Below are positions 4,335 to 63,370 of a stretch of DNA of 64,000 bases, one piece after another (position 1 is the first letter of the stretch; each line of letters begins with the position of its first letter). The stretch comes from Eledone cirrhosa (Eukaryota), in the NCBI GenBank assembly GCA_964016885.1, contig OZ024740.1, forward strand, positions 360,840,001 to 360,904,000, in the 5' to 3' direction. The notes under the pieces are model-generated. The model was given only the letters and a program-made list of their open reading frames with translations. It was not told the DNA's origin and ran no database searches. A program made the position numbers and the translations under genes.

Positions 4335-4501
4335 TGTTATTTAGTCATAGTCAGTCACATCAACAAGATGGTAGCCAATCCAAACAGGATGGGTTGTTAC
4401 AACCAATAGATGTTAGTGTTTTTTTGATCATTTTTTTTTTTCATATAAAGGTGTTAGTTATGGTGATGGAATGGAAGGAAGTGGTTTAGAACGGGTCTTA
4501 C

Positions 4502-4588
4502 CGCTTGGCCTCTTTTTCTGCAATAATCTGGCCTAGTTTTCGGGCAGTCTCCTCAGCAGCCAATTTCTCGGCTTCCAATGGCTTTAGC
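4502..4588 (-). CDS. RUFY2: Internal exon (87 nt, phase 2/2) of RUFY-family gene: (K)LKPLEAEKLAAEETARKLGQIIAEKEAK(R)
   Basis: Acceptor ctgccttgtcacccctAG, donor CG|GTAAGA; joins in frame to exon 46548-46645; the joined peptide resembles the RUFY1/2/3 coiled coil (recalled, not searched; symbol is family-level). Confidence 0.85.
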
Positions 4589-4878
4589 CTAGGGGTGACA
4601 AGGCAGGGTGGCGCACACAACGACGTCAGACGAAGATGAGAAGGAAGAGGAGGAGCCAGCAGGTTGCAGCATGCAAAAGAAAACAAAAAAAAAGCACACT
4701 CGTTGGTAGAAGTCATTTTTGGCATGACACAACATGATAACGTGCTGTTGTTGTTGCTGCTGCTGCTGCTGCTTCTTCCACTGCTGTGGTAGGGGTGGGG
4801 GAACTGGAGTGAGAGGGAGAGGGGAACAATGGGACAAAGTGGCAATTATTTTTTTTTTATGAATTAAAAAAAAAAGAC

Positions 4879-24505: not shown

Positions 24506-24546
<41 letters not shown>

Positions 24547-24576
24547 AAAAATAGAGGTGTGACACACGAGTTGTGA

Positions 24577-24984
24577 TATATTAGTAAAAAGGAAAAGAAA
24601 ATGCTGACAAATTTTTCCCAGTGAAAAATAGTTTAAGTAGGAATAAGTATAAATTAGTAATAAGTATTAGTTAGTATTCAGTTTTAGTTTTAAGTTTTTA
24701 CCGGTTGCGCATTTCTAATGCTTTTCAAAAATAATTTTGAGATAGAGTGCTCGTGATTTTTGGTCTAATCACGTCCATTCCTCTCCGACAGATTAGAGCA
24801 AAAATCGCGAGCACTCTATCTCCAAATTATTTTTGAAAAGCATTAGAAATGCGCAACCGGTAAAAACTTAAAACTAAAACTGAATACTAACTAATACTTA
24901 TTACTAATTTATACTTATTCCTAATTAAACTACTTTTCATTGGGAAAAATTTGTTAGCATCTTCTTTTCCTTTTTACTAATATA
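24577..24984. repeat. Near-perfect inverted repeat with 194-bp arms and 20-nt loop, between (TA)n runs
   Basis: Arms 24577-24770 / 24791-24984 are complementary apart from a few substitutions. Confidence 0.97.
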
Positions 24985-25671
24985 TATATATATATATATA
25001 TATACAGACACATGCATAATACATACACACACACACACTTTATTTCAATGGGTTTGATCTGTCACCAGGAGTCATATCCAATTATATAATGTAAATGTTA
25101 CCAAACAGGATTTGAACTAGGAAGCTATACTTCCAAGTGGAGGTCACTATCTTCAAAGTCACCCCACAAGTGAACATACAGTCAGTTATCATCATTAAAT
25201 GAACATACAGTCAGTTATCGTCATTAGGCTCCCGTCTAAACTCAATGAAGTAAATCAAAAAGGAAAATATATTTCTAAAAAACTGTCAATCAAATTTGAA
25301 AAAAAAATTGTTACATTCATTAAACAAACATTTTATGTAAGTGTAACATAAAAACATCTGTGTGTATGTGTGCATATGTCCTTGTTCATGTGTATGTGTG
25401 CATATGTCCTTCTTCATGTGTGTGTTAGTGCAAATGTGTATGAGTGAATGTATGCATGTGTGAATGTGGGATAGGAAAGCAGGATATTTTAATGAGGGCA
25501 GAAAAAAATGTTTATTTAAAAAAATTTTTTATTTCAAATGTAAAAAAAACCCAGTATTGAAAGCTAGATTCTCCAGTAAACTGACATTTGTGTTTATTTA
25601 GATACATCATTGTTTCAAGAATGTGCAAAACATGCACACATACATATGCACACATACATATGCACACACAC

Positions 25672-28730: not shown

Positions 28731-31700
28731 TGCCTGTTTGTTTGTTTGTTTATTTATGTTCGTCTACAGCGTGATAATGCCACACAAAAATCACCGGGAG
28801 TGACGAAATCACCGGTGGTTATGTAACCATAAATTCGCCAATCCTCGATAAGAGTGTTTAAATGTCGAACCTAAACAGTTCGAATAACGGTGAAGTGGAG
28901 ACTAGAATGTCATGTGACAGACTCTCACCCAACAGGTGCTCCCTGGCTCAGCAGCAGGGACCTGGCTGTCAACCAAATACTGCTGGTGTCGGAGGAAGAA
29001 GAAGAAGGAAAGAGACCAGAACCAACTGGATGAAAGAATTGAATAGAACTATTATGCAATGTTACCTGAAGAGTAACCCCAAGGAGAAAGGCTATAGGAA
29101 ACGGATGCATAACATCTGGAACGAGATTGGTCTATTTAAATTAGATGAACAAAAATTGGCCGGGTGGTAAGCGAGCTGGAACTGGAGGAACTGAGCAGAG
29201 AGATTAGCTTGGAAATGGAGAGTGGAGTATGCCAGGTAAACGAGCCAGTGGGAAATGAAGGTGAAGAGGTCGAGAGAACGGAGGAACCACCCGAAGCAGA
29301 CAATGATCTGAATGCTGAAATAAATAATACCTGGAACAGAGATACGGCCATTGAGGAAATGAATGCTGACGGGCTAGGACAAGATTTGGTTGATATCCTA
29401 AACTTAGTGGTAGATGAATTGAACAATGATAGTGGGAAACCTATGAACCTAAGATTTGTAGACAGGAAAAAGTTAAAAGAAACAACAGCTAAGGTAAACA
29501 AAGTCATCCCATACCTTGAGGCGAGGAGCCTTCACTAGTGCAACAATATCCTCAAAGCAACAGCAAATACGGTGAGGAAATTACTTGGTATAAAAGTGAG
29601 AGGAAACAACAAACAAGAAAGATCAGAGCCCTGGTGGAAGAAACGACTGAGTGGTCAAATCAGGGAAATGAGAAATGACATTGGAAAGCTTGAGTCCCTA
29701 CTGAATGGGACACTAAAAAACATAGACACTAAAAATAGACTGGAAATAAAGTACAAAACTAGGAGGAAAAAGCTAAATATTATCATAGAGGAACTGAAGC
29801 AACGCATTGTAGCAAAGAGTGCAAAAATCAGGCGATACGAGAACAGAGTCAGTCAGTATAGACAGGACCGCATGTTTGACAACAACCAGAAGATGCTGTT
29901 TGGACAGCTTGAAGGGAAAGAAAGAGGCAACGACTTGATCCCTGAGGTGGAACAAACTAAAACATTCTGGAGAGGAATATGGGAGCAGGATGTTAAACAT
30001 AATGACCAGGCAGTGTGGATTGAGACAGTACAGAAGGAGATTAGTGAACAGGCACACCAACAAACTGATTTGAGTATCACAGTTGAAACTCTTAAGGGGC
30101 AGGCCAAAAAACTAACCAACTGGAAATCACCAGGTCCAGATAGTGTGCAGGGGTATTGGATAAAAAATATAACATCCCTCCACCCGAAACTGACAACCAT
30201 GTTCAATGACTGCTTGATGTCAGGTGAGGTACCAGAGTGGTTGACAAAAGGTACCACAGTTCTGATAATAAAAGACCGAATCAAGGGTAATGATGTTACC
30301 AACTATAGACCTATCACATGTCTGTCCGTAATGTGGAAACTGTTGACAAGCATTATGTCTGAGGAAATCTACCATCACCTCCACACAAACAACTTGTTTC
30401 TGGACGAACAGAAAGGATGCCGAAAGAAGTCCTGTGGTACAAAGGACCAGTTACTTATTGATAAGATGGTGATGAGGAATTGCAAGAGGAGACATACTGG
30501 TCTTGCCATGGGATGGATAGACTACAAAAAGGCATTTGACATGGTGCCTCATTCTTGGATCACCAAAAGCCTGGAGATCTTCAGGGTGGCAGATAACATC
30601 AGACAGTTGTTGGGCAAAAGTATGAAGTCCTGGGAAACAGAGTTAACATCAGCTGGAGAATCCTTGGGAAGCGTGAAGATCAAGAGGTATTTTCCAGGGA
30701 GATAGTCTGTCCCCTCTGTTGTTTGTCCTTGCCCTGATGCCCCTGACCAGTATACTGCGAAAAGTGAGAGCAGGATACAGGTTGGGAAAGGGAGGGCTTA
30801 CCATCAATCACCTCCTCTTCATGGATGATCTTAAGCTCTTCGGGAAGAGTGAGAAGGAGTTGGATGTGCTTGTTGACACTGTCCGTATTTTCAGCAATGA
30901 TATATGTATGCAATTTGGTATTAGTAAGTGTGGAGTCCTTGTGATGAGGAGGGGTAAATTGAGCAGAAGTAACGGAATCCAGGTACCAACAGGTGAGATG
31001 ATAAAGGAAATTGACACTGTAGAAGGATACAAGTATTTGGGTGTTCTGGAGGCTGATGACATCAAGAACAAAAAAATGAAGGAATTGATAAGAACTGAAT
31101 ACATTCGGAGAGTAAGGAGCGTATTAAAGTCACATCTGAACAGTAGGAATGCCATAAGTGCAGTAAATTCCCGAGTGGTTGAAAAGAGGAGACCTTAAAT
31201 AGGCTGCAGAAGGAATGTTAATGGCTGTGCAAGAGCAGGCCCTCAAAACGAAGTGGTTGAAACACCATATTTACAAGGAGGAGGCTAGCCCACTGTGCAG
31301 GATCTGTGGAGAGAGAGAGGAGACTGTGGCCCACATTGTATCCGAGTGTAAACACCTAGCCAAGACTCACTATAAGGGCTGGAGACATGATGTGGTGGAC
31401 AGGGTGATCCACTGGCACCTATGCAAAGTAAACAATTTACCACATTCTGAGAAGTGGTATGAGCATAAGCCAGAGTTGGTGATAGAAAACGATCAGGTGA
31501 AGGTGCTGTGGTATTTTAGGATACAGACGGACAAGAAACTGGAACACAATAGACCTGACCTGGTGGTTGTGGACGAAGAAAAAAAGATCGTGCCTGATTG
31601 TGGATGTGGCCTGCCCATTCGACACGAGAGTGCAAGAGAAGGAGAAGGAGAAAATTAACCGATACCAGGACTTAAAGTGGGAGGTAAAAAGGATTTGGAA

Positions 31701-31942
31701 CTGCCATGAAGTCAAAGTGGTCCCGATTGTCATAGGCACACTAGGTACTATCTCAAAAAATTTCCAGGGATGGTTAAAGAAAATTGGCCCCTTCACGCTT
31801 TTTGGAACGCTTCAAGAGGCATGCTTGCTGGGAACAGCAAGAACCCTCCGATACGTCCTGAATATCTGAGGCTGCAGGTAGTGGCTTGATATTCATTTCA
31901 ACAAACTTTCCAGTTAACTAACATCAATGACTGAGACTCAAA

Positions 31943-31943
<1 letters not shown>
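28731..31943 (+). mobile_element. Near full-length R4/Dong-like restriction-like-endonuclease LINE, frameshifted and internally deleted
   Basis: Myb-like N-terminus, NWKSPGPD, NYRPITCL, WIDYKKAFD, HLLFMDD, YKYLG, CRICG..HIVSEC, RHD, RPDLVVVD; flanked by (AAT)n. Confidence 0.93.
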
Positions 31944-31974
<31 letters not shown>

Positions 31975-31975
<1 letters not shown>

Positions 31976-33240
31976 GATATGGATCATCTTTACCTTCCTA
32001 GAACTCAAGGAGGCCATGGCCTGATCCAATTTGAACTTGCTTACAAGACCACCATCATTGGACTGGCCAAACACCTTGAAACAACTAACGACTGTATGCT
32101 GAAACTTGTTGAAAAGCATGAGAGAAGTAAGAAGCTTCATTCTATCTTGAAGGCGAGCAAAAAATATGCTACTGATCTCATGCTTGATACCCAGGCTGGA
32201 CAGACTAAAGAAACTGTTGCAACTGATGCTGCTAGGCACATAAAATCACTGGCAAAAGCAAAAGGGCAAGGACAATTAGCATCAAATTGGGAGCAGAAAC
32301 CTCTGCATGGCAAATATGTGGCCTGTAGCAAACAAGCTGATGTTGACCAAAAGCACACCCATCAGTGGCTACGTAGTTCAGGGCTAAAGGCGGAGAGTGA
32401 AGGCTTCATCTTAGCTTCCCAAGATCAAAGCTTATTGACTCATAATTACCAGGCCAATGTGATGAGAAACGGAATAAACCCAAAGTGCCGATTCTGAAAT
32501 GCTGAGGTTGAAACAGTGGATCACTTAGTCTCTGGATGTAAAGTTTTAGCACCAGTAGAATACAAATATAGACATGACAGAGTTGGCCAATATCTACATT
32601 GGGTAATATGTCGGCATTACAAAATCAAAGCTGAAGACAAGTGGTACAATAATCACCGTGAGGCTGTAACTGAAGGAGAAAAAGTAACAATTCTCTGGGA
32701 CTTTCCTGTACATACTGACAGGACCATAAAAGCAAATAGACCTGACATCATTGTAAAAGATCAACAATACAAGGTCTGTTTATTGATAGATATGAGCATC
32801 CCATGTGATCACAATATCGCGGCAAAAGAATTTGACAAGCTACGAAAATATAAAGATCTGCTTATTGAAATTGAGAAAATGTGGCACCTCAAGGCCGTTA
32901 CAATACAGTGATTGTGGGAGGACTGGGAATGATCAAGAAAGGAACAGAACAATATTTGCGAATGATTCCTGGTTTACCCGCTCTGCACGAGGTGCAAAAA
33001 ATTGTTTTGACTGGTACTGCACACGTATTGAGAAGAGCACTATCTCTGTAAGATTGATATCCCTCCTTGTATTTACATATGCATATGTACATGTGTATAT
33101 ATGTATACTGTTTTTTAAATTTTTTTTATTATAATCAATGTGATGTATTAACTGGCTTACCAATGCACACTGTGAATTTATTTGCCCTAGGTGTCAGGAA
33201 GACACTTGGCATATATCTCAGAAACAATAATGAAAGAAAA
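31975..33240 (+). mobile_element. 5'-truncated second R4/Dong-like LINE (distinct family)
   Basis: LYLPRTQGGHGL, KPLHGKY, CRF..HLVSGC, RHD, ILWDF, NRPDIIVKD, KYKDL; (AAT)n on both sides. Confidence 0.92.
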
Positions 33241-46290: not shown

Positions 46291-46547
46291 TCTTAATCTT
46301 AATAATGACATTGAAAAAATGTTCTTTAAATGTCTTGCTTGAGGGAAGTATTACAGAAAGAGTTTTTTTAACAATCATGGAAATGTGTTTGCACAACAAT
46401 GATGCTGCTAACAATAATTAGAGAAAAAAAAATTATAACAGTAACAAGAACAAGGAAGACGAGAATTTACAAGAAAAAAGAACAGCACTCCAATAATAAT
46501 AGAAGAAAAAAAAAAGGAGAAAATAAAAACCAAAAACAAAGACTCAC

Positions 46548-46645
46548 TTCTTCTCCATCTCCTTCAGAGTGTTTACTAGTTGTTCGGTTTTCTCTTCCAG
46601 TTTGGCAACCACTTCAGTCTTTTGTTTCAAGTTACTATCACAAGT
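46548..46645 (-). CDS. RUFY2: Internal exon (98 nt, phase 0/2) of RUFY-family gene: TCDSNLKQKTEVVAKLEEKTEQLVNTLKEMEK
   Basis: Branch-like cactaat, pyrimidine tract, tttCAG acceptor, AA|GTGAGT donor; resembles RUFY2 LKEKNEIIARLEEKTNKI (recalled; symbol is family-level). Confidence 0.88.
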
Positions 46646-47906
46646 CTGAAAGACACAACAAGTTGGAAAAGATTAGTGCTGCTATGTCGACTAACAACAA
46701 TTCCATTTTGGGTACATGCAATGTAAAGCTGGCTACAGTGAAGTTTAAACTTAAAAATATAAAAGGGCTAAGGCACTCTTATCATCATTATCATCATTTT
46801 ACATCCATTTTGGCATGAGTTGGACAGGTTGTAATGATCCGAGACTAGATGGGGTTGGAGACACCTTATCTTGCTCAAATGTTTTATATTAGACATTGTT
46901 TCTACGGCTAAATATCCTTCCTAACACTAACCACTTTACAGAGTTTACTGAGTTTATTTTATAGTGTTACCAGCACTAGAAAGGTTGTCGTAAGTTCTGC
47001 CAAACTGAAGAGTTTTGTTTAACCTATACTGTCTCTGATCACTGACCCCTTTACATAGTATACTAAGTTCATTTTATTGTGGCAAAAATACCAAAGTGGT
47101 ATTTGATAGGTTCAGAGGATCCTCTCTAATCTAAAAGAAAACAAAAGTTGAAAGAAGCCAATCATCCGATTAGACCAAGGAGACAATGTTTCCATTGGTC
47201 TTTCCACTGTTGATACTGTCTACCAATTGCAACTCCTGGGAGAAGGAGATAGGATTTGAACTCAGAATGCATAGAGCCAGATCCAGTTTCGCTTTAACAG
47301 TTCTGTCAATTCATTGTCCCAGGACTGGTATTTTATTTATTGTCCCCCAAAAGGATAAAAGAAATAATTGACCTCAGAGCACAGTGAGCCAGAACAAATA
47401 CCAAAGCATTTAATCTGGTGTTCTAACATACAAGCATGGCTATGTAGTTAAGAAATTTGCTTCACAACCATGTGGCCTTACGTTCTATCCTACTATGTGG
47501 AACCTTGAGCAAGTGTCTTCTATTATAACCTCAGGTTGACCAGTGTCTTGAGTGAATTTGGTAGTCAGAAACTGTATGAAACCCGATATATATATATGTG
47601 TGCCTGTCTCTTCTATTTGCTTTTGAAATCACTAGTGCATGTGCTGATATTTCTTTATGCCCTGCATAAACAGAGCTCCTGCTGCTTAGAGGATATGCGG
47701 AGATCTGTACTTTACTTAAAAATCAAGTGAGGGTTGTCATCAGAAAGAGCATCCGAATGTAGAATTCTGCCTCAAACAGTCTTGCCACCATGAAATAAAA
47801 ATGGACATAAAACTAATGGTAGTGATGATATAATTCAAATCTAGGACCCATCTGTTTGAAGTAGGTTCAGTGAAAGTTGGAAAGCTAAAAACTCTTACTG
47901 TGTTTC

Positions 47907-54590: not shown

Positions 54591-56052
54591 AGTAGATGAA
54601 TGGCTTGTGAAAGCGGTACAAGCCATGTATATAGGAGTAGATGAATGGCTTGTGAAAGCGGTACAAGCCATGTATAGGGGAGCAGTCAGCAAAGTTAGGA
54701 TTAGCAATGAGTATAGCAAGGAATTTAGCGTACAGGTTGGGGTCCACCAGGGCTCTGTTCTTAGCCCTCTCCTGTTCATCATAGTCCTGCAGGCAATAAC
54801 GGAGGAGTTTAAGACCATGGGAACTCCTGTATGCTGATGACCTCGCACTCATAGCTGAATCTATGGTAGAACTAGAGAATAAATTCCAAACTTGGAAGCA
54901 GGGACTAGAAAGAAAGGGTCTCAAAGTCAACATGACAAAGACTAAGGTCCTTGTAAGTAGACGAGAAAACAGAACCCAGATCCCCTCAGGGAAATGGTCT
55001 TGCTCAGTATGTAGGAAAGGTGTAGGTAGGAACTCCATTCTCTGCCCCAAATGCAAACAATGGGTACACAAGAGATGTAGCGGGATCTCAGGAAGCTTAA
55101 TTAAGAATGTAGGATTCACATGCAGCAGCTGTGCTGAGACAGCAAGCAGCAAACAGCCACAGGAAACAAGTACCACCAATCTCTGGGAGGGCCCTGTAGA
55201 AACAGTAGACAGCTTCTGCTACCTAGGTGACCGAATTAGCAGCGGAGGTGGGTGTTCAGAAAGTACAATAACTAGGGTAAGAACAGGATCGAAGAAGTTT
55301 AGGGAACTACTACCACTGCTAGCTGCAAAAGGCTTCTCCCTCAGAATGAAAGGCAGACTGTATGATGCGTGTATCCGAACAGCGATGTTGCATGGTAGTG
55401 AGACCTGGGCGCTGAAGGTGGAAGACTTACGTAGATTAGAGAGAAATGAAGCCTGCATGCTCCGATGGATGTGTAACAGTAATATACATGAACGACAAAG
55501 CATAAATGAATTGAGAGAGAGACTGAGCATAAGAGGAATCAAATGCTGTGTGCAGGAGAGGCGGTTGCGCTGGTATGGACATGTGATGCGTATGAAGGAT
55601 GACAGCTGCATAAAAAGGTGCAGAGCACTAGAAGTTGATGGAAACCGCGGAGTGGGGAGACCCAAGATGACCTGGGATGAGGTGATAAAAGCCGACCTTA
55701 CCCAATTGCACCTCTCAAAGACAATGACACACGACCTTGACTTCTGGCGTCACGCAGTAATACAGAGTACCCGACCTCCCATGGGTACAAGCTGAAGCAT
55801 ATAGACAATATGCCCCCACACCCCCCACCGCAAAAAAGCACCCAGCCCACACTATAAAGTGGACGTGTAGGCGCCACGAAAAAGCACCCAGCACTCACTG
55901 TAAATGAGGTTGGTGTTAGGAAGGGCATCCAGCTGTAGAAATCAAGCCAAATCAGTTCCTGTCAGCCGACCAGACACTGCCCACAACAGGACAACCCGTC
56001 TAACCCATGCTAGCGTGGAAGAACGGATGTAAGATGATGATGATGATGATGA
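54591..56052 (+). mobile_element. 5'-truncated RTE family A nested in a family-1 MITE
   Basis: ORFs 54547-54837 and 54863-55795; MITE halves at about 54402-54590 and 56053-56072. Confidence 0.95.
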
Positions 56053-61646: not shown

Positions 61647-63370
61647 TCATCATCATCATCATCATCATCACCGTTTTACGTCCGTTCTTCCACGCTAGCA
61701 TGGGTTAGACGGGTTGTCCTGTTGTGGGCAGTGTCTGATCGGCTGACCATGCCTTGCTCATACAGGAACTGATCTGGCTTGATTTCTACAGCTGGATGCC
61801 CTTCCTAACACCAACCTCATTTACAGTGAGTGCTGGGTGCTTTTTCGTGGCGCCTACACGTCCACTTTACAGTGTGGGCTGGGTGCTTTTTTGCCGTGGC
61901 ACCTCCACGACCACCTTGCGGTGGGGGGAGTGGGGGCATATTGTTTATATGCTTCAGCATGTACCCATGGGAGGTCGGGTACCCTGTATTACTGCGTGAC
62001 GCCAGAAGTCACGGTCGTGTGTCATTGTCTTTGAGAGGTGTAGTTGGGTAAGGTCGGCTTTTATCACCTCATCCCAAGTCATCTTGGGTCTCCCCACTCC
62101 GCGGTTTCCATCAACTTCTAGTGCTCTGCACCTTTTTATGCAGCTGTCATCCTTCATACGCATCACATGTCCATACCAGCGTAACCGCCTCTCCTGCACG
62201 CAGCATTTGATTCCTCTTATGCTCAGTCTCTCTCTCAATTCCTTTATGCTTTGTCGTTCACGTATATTACTGTTACACATCCATCGGAGCATGTAGGCTT
62301 CGTTTCTCTCTAATCTATGTAAGTCTTCCACCTTCAGTGCCCAGGTCTCACTACCATGCAACATCGCTGTTCGGATACACGCATCATACAGTCTGCCTTT
62401 CATTCTGAGGGAGAAGCCTTTTGCAGCTAGCAGTGGTAGTAGTTCCCTAAACTTCTTCGATCCTGTTCTTACCCTAGTTATTGTACTTTCTGAACACCCA
62501 CCTCCGCTGCTAATTCGGTCACCTAGGTAGCAGAAGCTGTCTACTGTTTCTACAGGGCCCTCCCAGAGATTGGTGGTACTTGTTTCCTGTGGCTGTTTGC
62601 TTGCTGTTTCAGCACAGCTGCTGCATGTGAATCCTACATTCTTAATTAAGCTTCCTGAGATCCCGCTACATCTCTTGTGTACCCATTGTTTGCATTTGGG
62701 GCAGAGAATGGAGTTCCTACCTACACCTTTCCTACATACTGAGCAAGGCCATTTCCCTGAGGGGATCTGGGTTCTGTTTTCTCGTCTACTTACAAGGACC
62801 TTAGTCTTTGTCATGTTGACTTTGAGGTCCTTTCTCTCTAGTCCCTGCTTCCAGGTTTGGAATTTATTCTCTAGTTCTACCATAGATTCAGCTATGAGTG
62901 CGAGGTCATCAGCATACAGGAGTTCCCATGGGCATCCGGTCTTAAACTCCTCCGTTATTGCCTGCAGGACTATGATGAACAGGAGAGGGCTAAGAACAGA
63001 GCCCTGGTGGACCCCAACCTGTACGCTAACTTCCTCGCTATACTCATTGCTAATCCTAACTTTGCTGACTGCTCCCCTATACATGGCTTGTACCGCTTTC
63101 ACAAGCCATTCATCTACTCCTAGTTTTCTAAGAGCCCACCAGATTACCGCACGTGGAACTCTGTCAAAGGCTTTCTCAAGGTCGACAAATGCCAAGTAGA
63201 GTGGCTTACTTTTAGCTAGGTACTTTTCCTGTAATTGCCTCACAAGGAAGAGGGCATCAGTGGTGTCTCTCCCTGGTACAAACCCAAATTGCATCTCGTC
63301 TATATTCACCCGGTCCCTAATCAGCTGTGCTATAACTCTTTCTGTTACTTTCATGACCTGGTCCATCAAC
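61647..63370 (-). mobile_element. 5'-truncated RTE family A with open RT frame (61954-63369)
   Basis: Full RT motifs, Cys/His finger, 3' UTR, (GAT)n tail. Confidence 0.97.

What the first reader, a model, noticed from the sequence alone, without database searches (positions are those of the whole stretch)
24577..24984. 194-bp-arm intronic hairpin with a variant hammerhead-like core (U3-A8) in each arm
Seen: at 24833-24862, TTGAAAA-GCATT aga AATGC-GCAA-CCGGT-A, identical in both arms. It maps onto CUGAnGA-stem II-GAAA-palindromic ACCGGT-GUA with C3U plus G8A and A13C. Known: positions 3 and 8 form a tertiary Watson-Crick pair, and the U3-A8 swap is tolerated. The A13C change and the 3-bp stem I are unexplained. 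The hairpin is also a strong ADAR or Dicer substrate in the RUFY pre-mRNA.
Basis: partly seen in the sequence, partly recalled or inferred. Interest (0 to 1): 0.75.

Follow-up and report, generated by a model that had tools for sequence, protein, structure and literature searches.

The report
Penelope retrotransposon end with altered hammerhead
This hairpin in an octopus gene's intron is one of thousands of mirror-image end pieces of a Penelope-type jumping gene, and the self-cutting-RNA motif it carries has a family-wide change at a normally fixed position, but in this copy the motif is predicted to be locked inside the hairpin and unable to cut.

Summary
The 195-bp inverted repeat is real. 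It is a 5'-truncated insertion of a Neptune-type Penelope-like element (PLE): pLTR plus tail, preceded by an inverted pLTR, in (TA)n inside a 42-kb RUFY intron. The same arm flanks an RT + GIY-YIG ORF elsewhere in the genome. The motif is a true PLE minimal-hammerhead homologue: two sister families keep U3-A8, GAAA and ACCGGTA, stem I covaries, and the motif is 28/30 identical to a sister whose RT is 54% identical. U3-A8 and a 3-bp stem I are published PLE features. A13C is fixed in this family (4,818 motifs against 96 non-C copies); I did not find it in print, but the key paper (Lünse 2017) was not held. Each strand has only one sense motif, buried in the duplex, so this copy probably cannot cleave. 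Editing could not be tested (no RNA run). Copy 5' ends cluster at a predicted transcription start in two families. The scan noted similar two-armed PLE insertions before in this genome. Verdict: ordinary element, one open ribozyme question.

The parts
24511..24543 (.). (TA)n target microsatellite, tail side
   Evidence: TA-type runs at both ends in 19 of 19 palindromic copies
24544..24575 (-). PLE 'tail': about 32-nt extension at one end only; in full elements it runs on into the 5' UTR and ORF
   Evidence: tail described in PMC8557442 and mapped to the two RT start sites in PMC11167929
24576..24770 (-). Sense pLTR arm, starting 2 nt inside the family's 5'-end hotspot (predicted transcription start)
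24696..24731 (-). Minimal type-I hammerhead homologue (core 24728-24699: U3-A8, C13, palindromic ACCGGT; 3-bp U-A stem I). This is the only copy in RUFY-sense orientation
   Evidence: predicted buried in the duplex
24771..24788 (.). 18-nt copy-specific filler at the fold-back junction
   Evidence: centres differ among 19 copies; no match of 12 nt or more in the fetched loci or the rest of the window
24789..24985 (+). Inverted pLTR arm without tail, starting exactly at the hotspot
24830..24865 (+). Second hammerhead homologue (core 24833-24862), antisense to RUFY
24986..25004 (.). (TA)n target microsatellite, other side
46547..46651 (-). RUFY2-like exon upstream of the host intron (aa 414-448 of P0010)
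   Evidence: tblastn 97% identity
4501..4593 (-). RUFY2-like exon downstream of the host intron (aa 447-477; matched by 2 of 4 isoforms tested)
   Evidence: tblastn 90% identity

Best explanation
The feature is a 5'-truncated insertion of a Neptune-type Penelope-like retroelement (an inverted pLTR, a filler, then a pLTR with its tail) in a (TA)n run of a RUFY intron, and its motif is the family's minimal hammerhead homologue with a fixed A13C change, predicted to be inactive in this copy because it is paired into the hairpin. Shown: family membership, anatomy, homology of the motif. Inferred mechanism: a full element is likely transcribed from a start site about 45 nt upstream of the motif. 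The element's endonuclease would nick (TA)n, and reverse transcription would start at the two internal sites that bound the tail and run off the RNA 5' end after about 200 and 230 nt. Joining the two short cDNAs head to head would give the palindrome. In RUFY pre-mRNA the result is a passive 195-bp duplex and a likely A-to-I editing substrate, like many sister copies.
For: 2,063 candidates in the genome. The arm follows a shared 3' UTR in 30 of 30 loci, five of which show GIY-YIG fragments further upstream. Three of 3 EN fragments pass the Pfam cut-off and the RT scores RVT_1 29.1 bits. Arm plus tail stands directly before the ORF in 19 of 25 loci. The one-sided tail and TA flanks occur in 19 of 19 palindromes. 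Of 29 copies picked by their 3' end alone, 19 have an adjacent inverted arm, lengths vary, and 11 start within 10 nt of the hotspot. In sister family B, 17 of 28 do. TATA-like boxes sit at -31 and -32 in one copy each of A and B. The motif is 28/30 identical between A and B against 28/50 and 56/135 in the flanks, while the RTs are 54% identical. All 3 stem I pairs show two-sided changes. The probability of the first stem II pair in the full hairpin is 4e-17.
Against: The RT fragment is just under the Pfam cut-off (29.1 vs 29.6). No intact full-length copy was sought. Neptune assignment rests on domain order and motif likeness to the alignment in PMC8557442, not on a tree. The transcription start is inferred from sequence and copy ends only; the family B sample required the motif, which favours ends near it. 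18 of 29 family A copies do not start at the hotspot. Two of 19 centres (L010, L030) are alike, so some copying of whole palindromes is not excluded. Covariation rests on three lineages only.
Confidence: 0.88

Rival explanations
1. The U3-A8/C13 motif is still a working ribozyme in the parent element, cleaving as a dimer through ACCGGU or with help from the element's protein. A13 would then not be strictly required.
For: Between subfamilies A1 (92 arms) and A3 (8 arms), both C13, core plus stems show 0 of 31 substitutions against 27 of 183 in the flanks (Fisher p = 0.011). The palindrome self-duplex is -8.3 kcal/mol. The PAc hammerhead cleaves only with its protein (PMC11167929).
Against: The invariant block (arm positions 21-83, loop II excepted) is wider than the motif, and A1 vs A2 is not significant (0/31 vs 9/182, p = 0.24). 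A13 is in the consensus core (PMC3088659). Stem I is the weakest of the three families: +2.4 vs -1.8 and -1.3 kcal/mol in one copy each, and a rival hairpin covers U3-A6. Hammerhead cleavage was dispensable for insertion in vitro. From memory, with no source seen: A13 substitutions strongly reduce minimal hammerheads.
Confidence: 0.25
2. The motif in this family is a catalytically dead relic kept for another job, such as a splice donor in its GGTA or a protein-binding fold in the 5' UTR.
For: Of three GT[AG] sites in a 5' pLTR copy, the one in the motif is the only GTA, and a pyrimidine-rich CAG precedes the ATG. D. virilis Penelope has a 5' UTR intron (PMC2377424) that overlaps its hammerhead. 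The C13 family has more motif matches than either sister pattern (4,818 vs 1,603 and 1,971).
Against: No intron-less genomic copy was found: 0 matches, which is weak because PLEs retain introns. Splicing is untested.
Confidence: 0.5
3. The palindrome is a MITE-like DNA transposon with long terminal inverted repeats and TA target sites.
For: Long near-perfect arms and TA flanks; many copies of similar length among the best hits; one pair of similar centres.
Against: One-sided tail, variable truncation, copy-specific centres, and continuity with an RT + GIY-YIG ORF on both sides. The uniform length is partly an effect of using the palindrome as query.
Confidence: 0.04
4. The hairpin is a domesticated regulator of RUFY (cleavage, editing or small RNA source).
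For: It lies in a RUFY intron and is the most identical long short-range inverted repeat listed for the window. Octopus has very high hyper-editing, tied to near-perfect duplexes (PMC5625713).
Against: Arm-to-arm difference is 8/195, within the 2-13 range of 19 copies, with no sign of special preservation and no A-to-G polarity. About two thirds of sampled copies form such hairpins.
Confidence: 0.05

Closest known systems
Neptune-clade EN+ Penelope-like elements (Craig et al. 2021, PMC8557442; passages and supplement part 54 read)
   Same: RT followed by C-terminal GIY-YIG; CX2-5CxxC linker with long spacer; pLTR before and after the ORF; inverted 5'-truncated copy; 30-40 nt one-sided tail; microsatellite targeting; hammerhead in the pLTR.
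   Different: This octopus family is not among the two Octopus rows seen in their supplement, which are Naiads (2 of 4 'octopus' hits seen). It has a strong 5'-end hotspot giving about 410-nt palindromes, and a predicted TATA/Inr promoter, whereas D. virilis Penelope has a TATA-less internal promoter.
Minimal type-I hammerheads of metazoan PLEs, including the S. mansoni U3-A8 variant (Cervera and de la Peña 2014, PMC4209133; parts 1-2 of 4 and supplement passages read)
   Same: UUGAnAA box (their S. mansoni(4) row has UUGAAAA and a 3-bp helix I), G10.1-C11.1, palindromic helix III region, UH cleavage site, position in the pLTR, dual motifs on opposite strands 100-700 bp apart.
   Different: GCAA instead of GAAA (A13C); no extra nucleotide after position 9; all-AU stem I.
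PAc Poseidon of Anolis (Frangieh et al. 2024, PMC11167929; parts 1-2 of 4 read)
   Same: Two fixed 3' ends bounding a tail; AT-rich targets; hammerhead upstream of the RT start sites.
   Different: PAc has a canonical C3-G8 hammerhead overlapping the ORF start. Here the motif lies about 180 nt before the ATG, and both 3' ends fall in short AT runs that could pair with (TA)n.
Palindromic repeats as hyper-editing substrates (Porath et al. 2017, PMC5625713; passages read)
   Same: Self-folding near-perfect duplex in an octopus transcript.
   Different: Their example is a Harbinger DNA repeat in frog; editing here is untested.

Membership tests
EN+ Penelope-like element | RT followed by C-terminal GIY-YIG endonuclease in the parent | tested here: met
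   (EN above cut-off in 3 of 3; RT 29.1 bits, cut-off 29.6); all fragments are from broken copies
EN+ Penelope-like element | pLTR on both sides of the ORF | tested here: met
   arm after the 3' UTR in 30 of 30 loci, before the ORF in 19 of 25
EN+ Penelope-like element | One-sided 30-40 nt tail and inverted 5'-truncated copy | tested here: met
   19 of 19; 19 of 29 with inverted arm
EN+ Penelope-like element | 5' UTR intron | tested here: inconclusive
   candidate donor and acceptor; no intron-less copy; no RNA data
Neptune clade | CX2-5CxxC linker before GIY-YIG with long spacer | tested here: met
   C-x4-C-x2-C, compared by eye with Fig. S2 of PMC8557442
Neptune clade | RT phylogeny | not tested
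   no reference sequences on the script machine; motif likeness only
PLE minimal hammerhead | Y3-U-G-A-N-R8-A box with a 3-8 pair | tested here: met
   U3-A8 in families A, B, C; position 7 varies
PLE minimal hammerhead | G12-A13-A14-A15 box | tested here: not met
   C13 in 4,818 matches; other letters in 96; sisters have A13
PLE minimal hammerhead | Stems I and II, palindromic stem III region | tested here: met
   91% of cells paired vs 66% shuffled; stem I two-sided changes in 3 of 3 pairs; three lineages only; stem II changes in family C reflect a register shift
PLE minimal hammerhead | Self-cleavage (as dimer or protein-assisted) | not testable with these tools
   needs an in vitro assay; predicted blocked in this copy
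MITE (Tc1/mariner type) | Symmetric fixed ends and a shared internal sequence | tested here: not met
Non-LTR retrozyme | Head-to-tail tandem units each with a hammerhead | tested here: not met
   single inverted pair; definition from bioRxiv 10.64898/2026.07.22.740005, part 1 of 5

The most novel reading that the evidence does not exclude
An abundant PLE lineage carries a natural hammerhead with two departures from the core at once, U3-A8 and A13C, which stayed under constraint after the change and still cleaves as a dimer or with the element's protein. Its two A13 sister families give a ready natural control series.
Probability: 0.22. Interest if true: 0.65.

Novelty: new variant of a known kind. 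Interest (0 to 1): 0.36.

Why it matters
The locus itself is ordinary mobile DNA. The family is useful for one open question: what PLE hammerheads are for. A lineage that fixed a change in the GAAA box and still out-copied its A13 sisters either shows that A13 can be replaced in a working core, or shows in vivo that cleavage is dispensable for PLE spread, as suggested in vitro for PAc. One cleavage assay on three natural motifs separates these. The 5'-end hotspot also predicts the transcription start and offers a simple route to the many short palindromes that likely feed octopus hyper-editing.

Tried and rejected
Rfam scan: no hit. RNA evidence: no RNA holder listed. Laying four contig runs of unknown kind from one study showed only very high depth over the arms against about 7-11 on the unique flank; no piece spans the locus, so neither editing nor an empty site could be read. 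A C3-G8 sister family: the canonical-core hits that resemble this family proved to be single mutated or junction copies of families B and C, so I do not claim one; that pattern's total (103) was also below its reversed control (154). 'All palindromes share one 5' end': partly a query bias; the 3'-selected sample gives 11 of 29. Editing scars fixed in DNA: none in 19 palindromes. Intron-less copies: 0. mis-indexed the motif; one search replaces it. Search for published A13C: 0 papers for 'hammerhead' + 'A13C'; nothing relevant in the listings or passages. Lünse et al. 2017 and a hammerhead structure-function review sought by DOI were not held; Lünse may already list this variant. The PMC9901934 supplements held no per-mutant values. 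One supplementary file of PMC4209133 could not be searched. The sequence look-up in earlier scan notes gave unrelated hits.

Full report
Observation. The inverted repeat is at 24576-24770 and 24791-24985: 195 nt, 96% complementary, 20 nt apart, with 8 mismatches, none in the 30-nt motif. Either strand folds into one long hairpin (-284 and -280 kcal/mol, z about -40). A RUN-domain exon about 75 kb beyond the window is 100% identical to Octopus RUFY2-like proteins. Two RUFY exons lie in the window on the minus strand, at 46547-46651 and 4501-4593. The hairpin is therefore in a 42-kb stretch without a detected exon, and the minus strand is the pre-mRNA.

What it is. The genome search gave 2,063 candidates, of which 40 were scored. 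In 19 of 19 distinct palindromic loci examined, the element sits between TA-type runs and has a tail of about 32 nt on one side only. Four of the five 'half' hits fetched continue upstream into a shared sequence. In 30 of 30 loci found with that sequence the arm follows it directly, and five show GIY-YIG fragments further up. Longer stretches show RT then GIY-YIG, with a C-x4-C-x2-C linker (Pfam). Searching with the ORF's 5' end, arm plus tail stands directly before the ORF in 19 of 25 loci; five have an inverted arm or UTR instead and one has neither. So the arm is the pLTR. Inverted truncated copies, a one-sided 30-40 nt tail and microsatellite targeting are the published anatomy of PLEs (PMC8557442, passages). 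Domain order excludes Naiad/Chlamys, and the linker and its spacing match the Neptune rows of that paper's alignment (by eye; no tree).

How the palindrome likely forms. Centres differ from copy to copy, mostly scrambled bits of the arm start; two of 19 are alike. To remove query bias I took 29 copies (the first 30 of 41 matches, less the window) selected only by their 3' 93 nt. Nineteen have an adjacent inverted arm (one 32-nt low-complexity match not counted), 5' ends range from -380 to +111, and 11 fall within 10 nt of one site. Sister family B shows the same hotspot in 17 of 28 copies, a sample that had to include the motif. The site fits an initiator consensus (consensus recalled), with a TATA-like box at -31 in an A copy and -32 in a B copy, and E2F-, E-box- and CCAAT-like words further upstream (labels recalled). 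I infer a transcription start. In PAc, reverse transcription starts at two internal sites that bound the tail, on either nicked strand (PMC11167929, parts 1-2). Two such cDNAs running off the RNA 5' end and joined head to head would give exactly this structure. This step is inference. Five pairs of neighbouring opposite-strand matches share the same rare position-13 letter, as expected if both arms come from one template or were later homogenised.

Is the motif a hammerhead? Copies within the family cannot answer this, since all positions are about equally conserved (75 arms). Sister families can. Family B (1,603 motif matches, 0 in the reversed control) has an RT 54% and an EN 48-55% identical to ours (one and two loci). 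Family C was collected, and a wider C-type pattern gives 1,971 matches. All have U3-A8, a GC-closed stem II, G.AA and ACCGGTA; position 7 and loop II vary; B and C have GAAA. Majority sequences of A and B are 28/30 identical in the motif against 28/50 upstream and 56/135 downstream (downstream alignment is imperfect). On 21 natural copies (15 distinct), 91% of cells pair against 66% in shuffles and 30-44% with slid partners. All three stem I pairs change on both sides: U-A to A-U, U-A to A-U, and U-A to C-G. These are three lineages, not 15 events, and the stem II changes in C come from a register shift. Two other measures (pairs changed, pair types) did not exceed the shuffles. U3-A8 cores, 3-bp helices I and opposite-strand pairs are described for PLEs (PMC4209133).

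A13C. It is fixed in family A: 4,818 matches with C against 96 with A, G or T under a slightly stricter pattern, mostly T, which is background mutation. A13 belongs to the consensus core (PMC3088659). I found no paper on A13C, but Lünse 2017, the main survey of such variants, was not held. Evidence on function points both ways. For: between C13 subfamilies A1 and A3, core and stems have 0 of 31 substitutions against 27 of 183 in the flanks (p = 0.011), though the invariant block is wider than the motif and A1 vs A2 is uninformative. Against: A has the weakest stem I and a competing hairpin; U3-A8 itself is reported active but was not a rescuing pair in a full mutational scan (PMC9901934, passages); and cleavage is dispensable for PAc insertion in vitro. 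The motif's GGTA is also the best donor-like site ahead of an acceptor just before the ATG, which could explain the constraint; no intron-less copy exists to confirm it.

This copy. On either strand only one arm carries the sense motif, and the sequence shows that the antisense arm is transcribed first. In the minus-strand fold the first stem II pair has probability 4e-17. The upstream promoter-like region is missing. A cis dimer is impossible. Cleavage here is unlikely. The duplex is a likely ADAR substrate, given octopus hyper-editing of near-perfect duplexes (PMC5625713, passages), but this was not testable. Mismatches in 19 palindromes show no A-to-G polarity, and nothing marks this copy as specially preserved.

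Verdict. The element is a new member of a known kind; its hammerhead is a variant of a known kind. As a hammerhead it fails one defining feature (GAAA), so I call it a hammerhead homologue, not a proven ribozyme. Earlier scan notes on this genome describe similar two-armed PLE insertions; they are leads, not support. Interest 0.36.

Noticed in passing
L037:4657-8340 (G000:C2 near 156.0 Mb): A different PLE family (RT about 30% identical to ours in the best stretch) with 950-nt inverted arms 99.8% identical and an apparently canonical hammerhead core read by eye, inserted next to a family A palindrome. The same family recurs near L034, L039 and L068.
   Followed up: partly
L139-L168: Another repeat family with a CUGAUGA...GAAACCGGUC hammerhead-like motif makes up most of the 103 matches; some copies are in inverted pairs and some in a spaced cluster on C3 at 89.4-90.4 Mb.
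   Followed up: no
window:24544-24575 and families B, C: The tail begins with a similar short word (CA(A)CTCGTGT) in all three families although the rest of the pLTR has diverged; a candidate RT-binding or start signal. Both 3' ends fall in short AT runs that could pair with (TA)n.
   Followed up: partly
L034:3270-3484 (-), L192: The 3' UTR upstream of the pLTR carries repeated E2F-like and E-box words in families A and B and a CCAAT word in A, suggesting a cell-cycle or germline promoter (labels recalled).
   Followed up: partly
window:21687-21798: A 112-nt palindrome next to (TA)n; similar sequence recurs beside family A copies in several loci. Probably another small TA-targeting element.
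   Followed up: no
window:22272-23765, 28862-33134, 54800-55795, 61954-63369: Reverse-transcriptase-like ORF fragments of LINE type fill this intron (family not tested).
   Followed up: no
window:4501-4593 (-): This RUFY exon is matched by 2 of 4 Octopus isoforms tested, so it is probably alternatively spliced.
   Followed up: no
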